Notes under the pieces: model-generated
What the model saw: only the letters and a program-made list of their open reading frames with translations
The model's database searches: none
Told to the model about the DNA's origin: nothing
Position numbers and translations under genes: made by a program
Shown here: positions 5,881-7,281 of the stretch, in pieces
Layout: every line of letters starts with the position of its first letter
Numbering within the stretch: position 1 is the stretch's first letter
Assembly (NCBI GenBank): GCA_002104895.1
Contig: MCFG01000072.1
Coordinates: 62,001-126,000, forward strand
Direction: 5' to 3'
DNA: 64,000 nucleotides
DNA from: Anaeromyces robustus
Lineage: Eukaryota

Positions 5881-7281
5881 TTATTTTGATCCATGTTTTA
5901 TTTTTCTTCTTAATGCGGTTGCGAATTTTCCCTTCTTTCTATTTTGTTTACCTAGAGTATCAACCAAGTCATCAACATCCTTAAATCTTCCTTTCTTATG
6001 AGAAACATTTTCTTCACCAACATATCTTTTAGCATTCATCTTTCTCTTTCTTAAGATACCAGTACCATAATTAGCTTCATCTTCTTCATTTACAGCATTA
6101 TTAAGACCTTCTAAATCTCTAAAGTCACTTAAATTATTAAATTCATCTTGTAAAGACATTACACCACGACGTTTATTCATTCTCTTTCTTGCCTTCTTTT
6201 CTTCACGAGTTAAAGTGAAACGCATAAAGTTTTCTTCTTCATATTTTTGCTTTTCCAATAATTTCTCATCCATTCTAGTAGCAACTTCATGAACTCCATA
6301 ACCAGTACCTGCTGCTGTTAATTCTTCTGGTCTACTATCATATTGTTCCTGTAAATCTCTAAGTAATCTTGACTTAGCAGCACGTTTTTGTTCACGTTTA
6401 CTTAATTCACCAATATTTCTAGAAATAGACTTTTCTTCAAAGTGCATTGGAACAATTTTTGGTGGTCTATATAATTTTGTTTCATTAGAATCTTTTTCTT
6501 CTTTTTCATCTTCTGAATCTATCATATTCTTTGGATTTGGTTTATATTGTAACGGATCTTGTAATTCAGTGCTTATTGAACCATTCGCCATTTTAACTAA
6601 CTTATCAATTTGATATTTTAATTTTAATTCTAAAGGCTTCATTTTTTCTAAAATTGTTCTTTCCTTAATCAATTGCTCAATTACTGGATGATTCTCTATT
6701 TTTTGACCATCTAATTTAAGCATGAAATAATAACTTAAATTAATGATATAGCTAAGCATCACATTATATTTTACATCTAAGAAACTAATTCCTTTAGATA
6801 ATTCAAAATTTTCATCTTCAATCTTTTTTTCCAAAGGTTTCAATTTACTTTTAACTTCTATTATTTTTTCTTTAAAATCTTTCAAATATGAAAGAAATTT
6901 GGTTTCATTCTTTTCATCTATTTTATAATCTTATATATATATATAAATAAATTAGATTAGAAAATTAGATTTGATATATAATTAAAATATTTTAATTCAT
7001 TTTATAAAATATATTTATGTTCGAATCGTTTGAAATCTTTATTTATAATAAATATAAATAAAAAAAAAATCAATTCTCTTATGTTGTTGTTCCGTGGTTA
7101 ACCATTTATATCTTTTATAGAGAATAAAAAGATAAAAAACTTTGTGAAACTTGTTTTATTCAATTCAAACTTGATTTTTTATAATAAAACTTTATTTCTC
7201 CTTCCACGGGTATTAATTAATCATTTATTTATTTAATATTAATATTATTTAAAACATTATTTATTTATTACCTTTTTCCAT
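5881..7281 (-). CDS. LCP5: Lcp5/neuroguidin, Sas10/Utp3/C1D family SSU processome protein (exons 7281-7272, 6929-5881)
   Basis: Motifs GISFLDVKYNVMLSY, LEKMKPLELKLKYQIDKL, YRPPKI and YEEENFMR. The 10-nt first exon ATGGAAAAAG splices in frame (MEKDYKIDEK...). Confidence 0.9.
7015..7210 (-). ncRNA. Candidate intronic box H/ACA snoRNA in LCP5 intron 1
   Basis: Minus strand: stem CCGUGG/CCACGG, H box ACAACA (7090-7085), second hairpin GAAUUG/CGAUUC, ACA box (7020-7018). Hairpin-1 pocket strands AGUU and UGGUUAA complement 18S UUAACCA-U-A-AACU. Confidence 0.7.

What the first reader, a model, noticed from the sequence alone, without database searches (positions are those of the whole stretch)
7015..7210. 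Candidate H/ACA snoRNA in the LCP5 intron with a pocket matching 18S rRNA
Seen (minus strand): lower stem CCGUGG/CCACGG, a ~60-nt 5' insert, pocket 5' strand AGUU (7141-7138), upper stem UAUCUUUU/AAAAGAUA, and pocket 3' strand UGGUUAA (7104-7098) starting 14 nt before H box ACAACA. A second hairpin (GAAUUG...CGAUUC) and an ACA box follow. The pocket reads 18S UUAACCA-psi-A-AACU. From memory this is about U1024 in yeast numbering, equivalent to human psi1081 (SNORA8), a site I do not recall as modified in S. cerevisiae. The host is itself an SSU processome gene. I could not assign a target to hairpin 2.
Basis: partly seen in the sequence, partly recalled or inferred. Interest (0 to 1): 0.72.

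Follow-up and report, generated by a model that had tools for sequence, protein, structure and literature searches.

The report
Intronic pseudouridine guide RNA in LCP5
The first intron of a ribosome-assembly gene in an anaerobic gut fungus very probably encodes a small guide RNA that converts one conserved uridine of 18S ribosomal RNA into pseudouridine, an ordinary kind of RNA in a fungal group where none has been described.

Summary
On the minus strand, 7210-7015 folds as hairpin, H box (ACAACA), hairpin, ACA box. It lies in the 342-nt first intron of the LCP5/Sas10-family gene of Anaeromyces robustus.

- **Conservation.** A metagenome contig from a distant fungus, retrieved only through its LCP5 protein (L003), carries the same element on the gene's strand, just upstream of LCP5. 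The 12-mer AAAUGGUUAACC is identical, the H-box spacing is the same, and two lower-stem pairs are swapped by compensatory double changes. None of 86 chance occurrences of the motif has the stem partner.
- **Target.** The predicted target, UUAACCA-U-A-AACU, is a measured pseudouridine: S. pombe 18S psi1039 at 99.7% and human 18S psi1081 at 94%.
- **Correction.** ACA8 is listed as the snR31 homologue, which acts on a site 25 nt upstream.
- **Weak points.** RNA evidence is thin (low-depth contigs). This fungus's own 18S was not seen. Hairpin 2 has no target. There is no Rfam match.
- **Unusual feature.** A hairpin inserted in the 5' pocket strand is predicted in both fungi.

Verdict: a new member of a known kind, of moderate interest.

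The parts
7272..7281 (-). LCP5 exon 1, coding part (ATG 7281-7279, then GAAAAAG)
   Evidence: The protein is MEK plus exon 2, 352 aa, 100% identical to P0001. The joint appears.
6930..7271 (-). LCP5 intron 1 (342 nt, GT..AG), host of the RNA
   Evidence: The joint 6929/7272 skips 342 nt in RNA contigs of X2 (depth 30.4) and X3 (depth 7.9).
5881..6929 (-). LCP5 exon 2 (Sas10/Utp3/C1D family domain), stop codon included
   Evidence: PF04000, E 4.9e-22.
7015..7210 (-). Predicted mature H/ACA snoRNA (about 196 nt). The ends are inferred from the base of hairpin 1 and from ACA plus 3 nt.
   Evidence: In X2, a separate 204-nt RNA-library contig covers 7019-7222.
7204..7209 (-). Lower stem P1, 5' strand CCGUGG
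   Evidence: In L003 it is CCACGG, with compensatory changes.
7146..7198 (-). Inserted hairpin between P1 and the 5' guide strand (GAAAU/GUUUC plus GUUUUAUU/AAUAAAAC)
   Evidence: Minimum-energy folds. An insert hairpin is predicted at the same place in L003.
7138..7144 (-). 5' guide strand CAAAGUU. AGUU pairs with 18S AACU and CA pairs with UG, across one A-A mismatch.
   Evidence: Read against the S. pombe fragment. L003 has CACAAUU in the same register.
7106..7137 (-). Upper stem P2 with its loop (UU.UAUCUUUU / AAAAGAUA.AA; loop 7126-7117)
   Evidence: all listed pairs are standard.
7098..7104 (-). 3' guide strand UGGUUAA, complementary to 18S UUAACCA. Its first base lies 14 nt before the H box.
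   Evidence: It is identical in L003 within the shared 12-mer AAAUGGUUAACC.
7092..7097 (-). Lower stem P1, 3' strand CCACGG
7085..7090 (-). H box ACAACA (ANANNA)
   Evidence: L003 has AUAAUA at the same spacing.
7023..7076 (-). Hairpin 2. Lower stem GAAUUG/CGAUUC; pocket strands AUUUUU (7070-7065) and UUUCAAA (7035-7029); 12-bp upper stem. No target assigned.
   Evidence: -12.1 kcal/mol, z -2.93, 2 of 200 shuffles. The pocket top lies 15 nt before ACA.
7018..7020 (-). ACA box. The predicted 3' end is 3 nt further on, at 7015.
   Evidence: The X2 contig ends at 7019.

Best explanation
The element is an intron-encoded box H/ACA small nucleolar RNA of about 196 nt.

**Biogenesis (inferred).** The RNA is released from LCP5 intron 1 after splicing and trimmed back to the snoRNP-protected core.

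**Action (inferred).** Hairpin 1 forms a pseudouridylation pocket. The 3' strand UGGUUAA pairs with 18S UUAACCA. The 5' strand (CA.AGUU) pairs with AACU(A)UG. The U and the following A stay unpaired at the foot of the upper stem, 14 nt from the H box, where the Cbf5 synthase of the snoRNP would isomerise the U. The target is the central-domain uridine that is psi1039 in S. pombe and psi1081 in human, and that is unmodified in S. cerevisiae. Hairpin 2 with the ACA box serves assembly and stability and may be guide-less.

**Shown.** The sequence anatomy, the intron, conservation with compensatory changes in a second fungus, and that the target sequence is a real pseudouridine in two other eukaryotes.

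**Inferred.** Processing, snoRNP assembly, and modification of this organism's 18S.
For: 1. **Anatomy.** All H/ACA elements are present with canonical spacings: 14 nt from the pocket top to the H box, 15 nt from the pocket top to ACA, and ACA 3 nt from the predicted end.
2. **Independent homologue.** L003 was fetched by LCP5 protein patterns, not by the RNA. On the LCP5 strand, about 280 nt upstream of the ATG, it has UACCCACGG...AAAUGGUUAACCGUGG-A-AUAAUA.
   - Lower stem: 6 pairs, 4 invariant, 2 changed on both sides (G-C to A-U and U-A to C-G). All 12 of 12 cells are paired, against 17-42% when the partner is slid.
   - The upper stem differs in sequence but still pairs (UUUCAAC/GUUGAAA).
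   - The L003 hairpin-1 domain folds at -36.8 kcal/mol, z -3.91, with 0 of 200 shuffles as good.
3. **Control.** Only the window and L003 have the 6-bp stem partner 50-140 nt upstream. That is 2 of 88, and 0 of 86 bacterial or viral chance hits.
4. **Composition.** The element is a GC island in an otherwise 5-7% GC intron.
5. **Target.** It equals S. pombe psi1039 at 99.7% and human psi1081 at 94%. The motif is printed in several ascomycete 18S rDNA sequences.
6. **Guide conservation.** The 5' guide strands of the two fungi keep the pairing positions: C-A-x-A-x-U-U, read against AACUAUG.
7. **RNA.** In RNA libraries that hold the spliced mRNA, separate short contigs cover 7019-7222 (X2, depth 2.5) and 7076-7255 (X3, depth 3.2). 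The intron 3' part 6952-7008 has zero depth in all four runs.
Against: - **No family match.** Rfam gives nothing at the gathering score, and only an irrelevant poxvirus element at E 0.1. The L003 region also gives nothing significant.
- **Weak model search.** A covariance model built from the A. robustus hairpin alone did not single out L003. It scored 15.3 bits, E about 1.1, mis-registered at 302-412. That is below a bacterial control, L041, at 24.3 bits.
- **Weak RNA evidence.** The two contigs have depth 2.5-3.2. The X3 contig runs 45 nt beyond the predicted 5' end and stops at the start of hairpin 2. The two raw-read runs have no reads on 7085-7217, though exon depth there is only about 1-4.
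- **Modest fold statistics.** The A. robustus hairpin-1 fold is only modestly better than shuffles (z -1.85, 9 of 200).
- **Low power.** With two sequences, the shuffle control has no power (133 of 500).
- **Hairpin 2 is not conserved.** Its sequence is not recognisably shared with L003. The best L003 3' hairpin is followed by AUA rather than ACA and is not significant (z -1.45, 19 of 200).
- **Short 5' guide arm.** It is 4 bp contiguous in A. robustus. L003 needs two mismatches.
- **Atypical pocket.** A 62-nt insert sits in the pocket's 5' strand, of which 7198-7146 is predicted to form a hairpin.
- **Missing sequence.** The 18S of A. robustus was not available.
Confidence: 0.8

Rival explanations
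1. It is a genuine, conserved H/ACA-type RNA, but it does not pseudouridylate this 18S site. It could be an orphan, have another target, or act as a base-pairing chaperone for the 18S central domain during small-subunit assembly, as snR30/U17 does elsewhere.
For: The 5' guide arm is short and imperfect in both fungi. The pocket carries a large inserted hairpin in both. The host gene encodes a small-subunit processome factor. Orphan fungal H/ACA RNAs are common: 6 of 20 in N. crassa and 7 orphan families in the fungal survey.
Against: The 7-nt 3' arm and the 14-nt spacing are exactly conserved. The unpaired U falls on a position that is 94-99.7% pseudouridylated in two other eukaryotes. That is hard to get by chance among the 55 rRNA pseudouridylation sites counted in S. 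pombe.
Confidence: 0.1
2. The conserved core is a DNA-level or pre-mRNA regulatory element of LCP5. The near-palindrome TGGTTAACCA would act as a protein-binding site, and no stable RNA would be made.
For: TGGTTAACCA is a perfect 10-bp palindrome in the window, and GGTTAACC is kept in L003. The element sits at the 5' end of LCP5 in both. RNA evidence is thin.
Against: A DNA site does not explain compensatory changes in a partner strand about 110-125 nt away. It also does not explain the conserved non-palindromic AAA and UACCC flanks, the ANANNA box at fixed spacing, or the second hairpin with ACA.
Confidence: 0.04
3. It is a chance resemblance in AT-rich intron DNA.
For: AT-rich sequence readily gives A/U stems, ANANNA and ACA. 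There were 5174 and 5447 six-bp-stem plus ANANNA hits on the two strands when GC content was ignored. There is no Rfam match.
Against: The GC-rich stem plus ANANNA configuration is unique outside coding sequence in the window. There is an independent homologue next to LCP5 in another fungus. The target matches a known pseudouridine.
Confidence: 0.02

Closest known systems
Box H/ACA pseudouridylation guide snoRNAs (the class; fungal examples in N. crassa and S. cerevisiae)
   Same: It has the hairpin, H box, hairpin, ACA layout. It has a bipartite pocket flanking an unpaired U-N, and the target lies 14-15 nt from the box. It is intronic, in a ribosome-biogenesis gene. Its size of about 196 nt falls within the 136-309 nt listed for N. 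crassa H/ACA RNAs, most of which exceed 160 nt and are called 'irregular'.
   Different: A 62-nt insert with a predicted hairpin sits between the lower stem and the 5' guide strand, so the pocket becomes a three-way junction. No Rfam family matches.
The guides for S. pombe 18S psi1039 and human 18S psi1081, which I could not identify
   Same: They act on the same predicted target nucleotide in the same conserved sequence.
   Different: Their identity was not found in the papers I could read. The supplements of the fungal snoRNA survey, which list targets per family, could not be opened. Orthology with them is therefore untested.
snR31 / Nc ACA5 / human ACA8 (SNORA8)
   Same: It is an H/ACA guide for the same 18S region.
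   Different: It is listed for N. crassa psi996 through the 3' (ACA) hairpin. By my recall that corresponds to yeast psi999 and human psi1056. The site lies 25 nt upstream of the one predicted here (S. pombe 1014 against 1039). The guide strands here do not fit it.
snR30/U17 (H/ACA RNA needed for 18S processing)
   Same: It belongs to the H/ACA class and pairs with 18S during small-subunit assembly.
   Different: By my recall, snR30 uses two motifs in an internal loop of its 3' hairpin and guides no pseudouridine. Here the pairing is a standard pocket in the 5' hairpin, over a known pseudouridine. I ran no test against snR30 other than the Rfam scan, which gave no match.

Membership tests
Box H/ACA snoRNA | Two hairpins joined by a single-stranded hinge and followed by a short tail | tested here: met
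   The unconstrained minimum-energy fold gives both hairpins. Hairpin 2 alone has z -2.93, with 2 of 200 shuffles as good. Hairpin 1 alone has z -1.85, with 9 of 200.
Box H/ACA snoRNA | H box ANANNA in the hinge, directly after hairpin 1 | tested here: met
   ACAACA at 7090-7085, one nt after the stem. L003 has AUAAUA at the same spacing.
Box H/ACA snoRNA | ACA box three nucleotides from the mature 3' end | tested here: inconclusive
   ACA at 7020-7018 follows hairpin 2 after 2 nt. The true 3' end is unknown. The X2 contig ends at 7019, but contigs cannot show RNA ends. L003 has no clean ACA after a significant hairpin.
Box H/ACA snoRNA | Pocket with two strands complementary to an rRNA or snRNA around an unpaired U-N | tested here: met
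   The 3' arm gives 7 bp. The 5' arm gives 4 bp, plus 2 more across one mismatch. Both were read against UCUUAACCA-U-AAACUAUG, printed for S. pombe 18S. The 18S of this organism was not available.
Box H/ACA snoRNA | Target U 14-16 nt upstream of the H or ACA box | tested here: met
   14 nt (7104-7091) in the window, and 14 nt (391-404) in L003.
Box H/ACA snoRNA | Stems conserved by covariation, guide conserved in sequence | tested here: met
   One homologue only. In the lower stem, 2 of 6 pairs are changed on both sides and 12 of 12 cells are paired. The 12-mer that includes the guide is identical. The stem partner is present in 2 of 88 motif occurrences and in 0 of 86 controls.
Box H/ACA snoRNA | Stable, discrete nucleolar RNA bound by Cbf5, Nop10, Nhp2 and Gar1 | tested here: inconclusive
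   Low-depth contigs over the element were found in two RNA libraries, and no reads in two raw-read runs. Protein binding cannot be tested with these tools.
Any curated Rfam snoRNA family | Score at or above the family's gathering threshold | tested here: not met
   There were 0 matches in the window at gathering thresholds. At E up to 10, the only match is an unrelated poxvirus element. The L003 region gives only hits at E above 1.
snR31 / SNORA8 family | Guides the pseudouridine at yeast 999, N. crassa 996 and S. pombe 1014 through the ACA hairpin | tested here: not met
   The pocket here addresses the U 25 nt downstream (S. pombe 1039 against 1014) and sits in the H hairpin. The family assignment comes from the table.

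The most novel reading that the evidence does not exclude
The hairpin inserted into the 5' strand of the pseudouridylation pocket, and the physical linkage to LCP5, are both ancient and functional. This would be a fungal H/ACA variant with a three-way-junction pocket. The extra arm would bind another factor, or hold the 18S central domain, during small-subunit processome assembly. Co-expression from the LCP5 transcript would couple supply of a processome protein to modification or folding of the rRNA segment it helps to mature.
Probability: 0.15. Interest if true: 0.7.

Novelty: new member of a known kind. Interest (0 to 1): 0.45.

Why it matters
- **First candidate in this group.** I found no paper describing snoRNAs of the anaerobic gut fungi. 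Only two papers hold both 'snoRNA' and 'Neocallimastigomycota', and in each of them each word occurs once (search listing only). This gives a first well-supported example.
- **A guide for a known site.** It offers a candidate guide family for a pseudouridine that is almost fully modified in fission yeast and human but absent from budding yeast, the organism in which most guide assignments were made.
- **A search handle.** The conserved core (UACCC, a 6-bp stem, then AAAUGGUUAACC, the stem partner, A and ANANNA) can be used to look for the same guide in other fungi, including S. pombe.
- **Two open questions.** Does an H/ACA pocket tolerate, or use, a large hairpin inserted in one guide strand? 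Why does the RNA stay next to LCP5 in two fungi whose LCP5 proteins share under 50% identity?

The practical stakes are modest. This is annotation-level knowledge rather than a new mechanism.

Tried and rejected
- **Own genome and earlier findings.** Neither was available, so this organism's rRNA could not be scanned.
- **Metagenome scan by LCP5 protein.** Of 3 loci, L001 and L002 are spliced transcripts without the intron. Only L003 was informative.
- **Pattern scans for the 18-mer.** There were 84 stretches in bacterial and archaeal genomes (80 loci listed in the table) and 2 in viral contigs. I estimate about 70 are expected by chance. None is fungal, so they served only as controls.
- **Single-sequence covariance model.** It was not discriminating, so I dropped it as a homology test.
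- **Hairpin 2 target.**
  - The pocket would need UUUGAAA-U-N-AAAAAU.
  - By eye, no pseudouridine-bearing RNase T1 fragment fits, among the 18S rows from position 417 on and the 25S rows up to 2921 of the S. pombe table. The first and last parts of that table were not read.
  - No full rRNA was available for a real scan.
- **L003 3' domain.** An ACA at 473-475 lies 63 nt after the H box (65 nt in the window), but no convincing hairpin precedes it (z -0.49). The alternative GGGAA...UUCCC hairpin, followed by AUA, is not significant.
- **Alternative lower stem.** GUUUC (7150-7146) with GGAAC (7093-7089) would remove the insert. I rejected it because it puts the pocket top 17 nt from the next ANANNA and is not supported by L003.
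- **Literature on the human psi1081 and S. pombe psi1039 guides.** Nothing was found. For LCP5- or NGDN-hosted snoRNAs I looked only at the search listings, which showed nothing relevant.
- **GC-island scan for further intronic RNAs.** It returned 25 islands. I assumed they are mostly short exons, did not inspect them, and did not pursue this.
- **Raw-read RNA runs X23 and X24.** They were too thin over this gene to say anything.
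Full report
**What is in the sequence.**

| Element | Sequence | Coordinates |
|---|---|---|
| Lower stem P1 | CCGUGG / CCACGG | 7209-7204 / 7097-7092 |
| Upper stem P2 | UAUCUUUU / AAAAGAUA | 7134-7127 / 7116-7109 |
| 3' guide strand | UGGUUAA | 7104-7098 |
| H box | ACAACA | 7090-7085 |
| Hairpin 2 lower stem | GAAUUG / CGAUUC | 7076-7071 / 7028-7023 |
| ACA box | ACA | 7020-7018 |

The minimum-energy fold extends the upper stem by UUU/AAA across a U-U mismatch. 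The first base of the 3' guide strand lies 14 nt before the H box. In hairpin 2 the pocket top lies 15 nt before ACA, and ACA lies 3 nt before 7015.

An unconstrained fold of 7212-7012 returns both hairpins (-32.5 kcal/mol, z -2.30, 6 of 200 shuffles as good). Folded alone, hairpin 2 is clearly better than shuffles (z -2.93, 2 of 200). Hairpin 1 is only modestly better (z -1.85, 9 of 200).

**Where it lies.** The window is very AT-rich, 9-27% GC in 2-kb steps.
- The downstream frame 6930-5884 is a Sas10/Utp3/C1D-family protein (PF04000, E 4.9e-22).
- It is 100% identical to a 352-aa protein of Anaeromyces robustus. Close relatives are named U3 snoRNP protein LCP5, and more distant ones neuroguidin.
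- The 352 residues are MEK from ATGGAAAAAG (7281-7272) plus the exon-2 frame. The intron is therefore 7271-6930 (342 nt, GT..AG).
- RNA-library contigs of two runs carry exactly this joint: 6929/7272, at depth 30.4 in X2 and 7.9 in X3.
- The candidate starts 61 nt after the 5' splice site and ends 85 nt before the 3' splice site.

**Is it more than chance?**
- The element has 21.9% GC (hairpin 1 25.2%). The intron flanks have 4.9% and 7.1%, and exon 2 has 27.7%.
- Ignoring base composition, a 6-bp stem followed by ANANNA is common in this DNA: 5447 and 5174 hits on the two strands.
- With at least 4 G/C in the stem, only 2 places remain in 128 kb. One is this element. The other, 13495-13595 (+), is inside a coding exon that reads like a DEAD-box helicase. 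That name is my reading of the translation, not a family search.

**An independent homologue.**
- *No genome to compare.* None was held for the window.
- *Metagenome scan.* I scanned metagenome contigs with an alignment of LCP5 proteins. Two of the three loci are spliced transcripts.
- *L003.* The third locus is a genomic contig from an unidentified, distant fungus. Its LCP5 is only about 45-49% identical to those of Neocallimastigomycota, chytrids and Glomeromycota alike.
- *The shared element.* L003 was retrieved without reference to the RNA. It nevertheless carries UACCCACGG ... AAAUGGUUAACCGUGG-A-AUAAUA on the LCP5 strand, about 280 nt upstream of the ATG.
- *What is kept.* Compared with the window (UACCCGUGG ... 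AAAUGGUUAACCACGG-A-ACAACA):
  - The 12-mer holding the guide is identical.
  - The ANANNA box keeps its spacing.
  - The two central pairs of the lower stem are exchanged by changes on both strands (G-C to A-U, and U-A to C-G).
- *Pair counts.* On the alignment, the stem has 6 pairs, 4 invariant and 2 changed on both sides, with 12 of 12 cells paired. When the partner is slid, 17-42% of cells pair. With two sequences the shuffle control has no power (133 of 500).
- *Upper stem.* It differs in sequence (UUUCAAC/GUUGAAA) but pairs at the same place.
- *Fold of L003.* The hairpin-1 domain folds well: -36.8 kcal/mol, z -3.91, 0 of 200 shuffles as good.
- *Control.* The 18-letter pattern common to both copies occurs 86 further times in the bacterial, archaeal and viral DNA I fetched, roughly the number I estimate from chance. 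None of these 86 has the 6-bp partner 50-140 nt upstream, whereas the window and L003 both do.

**Evidence against, or too weak to count.**
- A covariance model built from the A. robustus hairpin alone did not pick L003 out. It scored 15.3 bits, E about 1.1, and was mis-registered. A bacterial control scored 24.3 bits. A single-sequence model handles the differently sized inserts poorly, but the test gives no support.
- Rfam has no match for the window at gathering scores, nothing meaningful at E up to 10, and nothing for L003.
- Hairpin 2 is not recognisably conserved. In L003 the best 3' hairpin (GGGAA...UUCCC) is followed by AUA, not ACA, and is not significant (z -1.45, 19 of 200). An ACA at a matching distance from the H box has no convincing hairpin before it.

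**The target.**
- *Predicted pairing.* The pocket reads UUAACCA-U-A-AACU. The 3' arm gives 7 pairs. The 5' arm gives AGUU with AACU, then an A-A mismatch, then CA with UG.
- *L003.* The 5' arm is GGCACAAUU, which gives UU-AA, A-U and ACGG-UGCC with two mismatches. The two species share C-A-x-A-x-U-U in the pairing register, and the mismatched position varies.
- *S. pombe.* The mass-spectrometric map prints the fragment 1030-UCUUAACCA-psi-AAACUAUG-1047, with psi1039 at 99.7% (main-text passages, Supplementary Table 3).
- *Human.* The map lists 18S psi1081 at 94%. Its Supplementary Figure S2 prints ...GUAGUUCCGACCA followed at 1081 by psi-AAACGAUGCC. This is the homologous position.
- *S. cerevisiae.* The S. 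pombe table aligns 1039 with S. cerevisiae 1023 in its own numbering. That numbering gives 1006 for the site I recall as Cm1007, so the standard position is about 1024. The table shows 'NA' where known yeast sites show 'H', 'CMC' or 'Ps'. I infer the meaning of those codes from the pattern, because I did not see the headers.
- *Other fungi.* The motif is printed in ascomycete 18S rDNA sequences.
- *Significance.* With only 55 rRNA pseudouridylation sites counted in S. pombe, a chance hit of a 7+4 pocket on one of them, in the right geometry, is very unlikely. This is my estimate, not a computed value.
- *Not seen.* The 18S of A. robustus itself.

The N. crassa snoRNA table lists ACA8 as the human homologue of snR31 and Nc ACA5, which guides 18S psi996 through the ACA hairpin. 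That site corresponds to S. pombe 1014 and yeast 999, 25 nt upstream of the site predicted here. I could not find which guide serves human psi1081 or S. pombe psi1039. The supplements of the fungal snoRNA survey, which list targets by family, could not be opened. A described fungal family for this site may therefore exist without my having seen it.

**RNA evidence.**
- All four runs were laid on 6800-7340.
- X2 holds a separate 204-nt contig covering 7019-7222 at depth 2.5, close to the predicted 7015-7210.
- X3 holds a 180-nt contig covering 7076-7255 at depth 3.2. This does not match the predicted ends.
- No run covers 6952-7008.
- The two raw-read runs have no reads on 7085-7217, but they cover the exons only 1-4 fold. 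Their reads at 7047-7084 are partial matches to low-complexity sequence.
- This fits a stable intron-derived RNA leaking into these libraries, but it does not show one.

**The unusual part.** Between the lower stem and the 5' guide strand lie 62 nt, of which 7198-7146 folds into a hairpin. L003 has a longer and more stable hairpin at the same place. The pocket is thus one arm of a three-way junction in both fungi. Large, irregular fungal H/ACA RNAs are on record for N. crassa and S. cerevisiae. I did not find this particular layout described, and I did not search for it specifically.

**Host linkage.**
- In A. robustus the RNA is in coding intron 1.
- In L003 it lies upstream of the ATG. A possible 5' splice site (GTAAAAGT at 165) and an acceptor (near 625) would place it in a 5'-UTR intron. 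This is inference only.
- For LCP5- or NGDN-hosted snoRNAs I saw only the search listings, which showed nothing relevant.
- Only two papers hold both 'snoRNA' and 'Neocallimastigomycota', and in each of them each word occurs once (listing only).

**Verdict.** This is very probably a genuine intron-encoded H/ACA snoRNA whose 5' hairpin guides the conserved 18S pseudouridine known as psi1039 in S. pombe and psi1081 in human. It is a new member of a known kind. Two modestly interesting features are the inserted hairpin in the pocket and the deep association with LCP5.

Noticed in passing
L003:270-410 (+), upstream of the LCP5 ATG at L003:684: A distant fungus keeps the same guide RNA hairpin next to its LCP5 gene, but upstream of the start codon rather than in coding intron 1. 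A GTAAAAGT at 165 and an acceptor-like ...gaatag near 625 suggest a 5'-UTR intron.
   Followed up: partly
window 13495-13595 (+): This is the only other GC-rich 6-bp stem plus ANANNA hit in the window. It lies inside a coding exon that reads like a DEAD-box helicase (my reading of the translation, no family search). The neighbouring intron holds long (TA)n and poly-A runs (13600-13730). It was used as a control and is not an RNA candidate.
   Followed up: yes
window 8836-9320, both strands: A long AAT/ATT triplet repeat is read as poly-Asn within a minus-strand frame whose flanks read like an ion-transport or channel protein (8842-10113).
   Followed up: no
window 7420-7470 (minus strand reading): A long poly-T tract lies about 150 nt upstream of the LCP5 start codon, in the presumed promoter region.
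   Followed up: no
window 7095-7104: The 3' guide strand plus the first bases of the lower stem form a perfect 10-nt palindrome, UGGUUAACCA (GGUUAACC in L003). This follows from the guide sequence abutting a CC-initiated stem, and it could allow self-pairing or dimerisation.
   Followed up: partly
L041:1508-1700: A bacterial control locus carries tandem copies of a repeat containing AACCGTGGAAGACCAAC. This is why it scored highest among the controls with the covariance model. It is unrelated to the finding.
   Followed up: no
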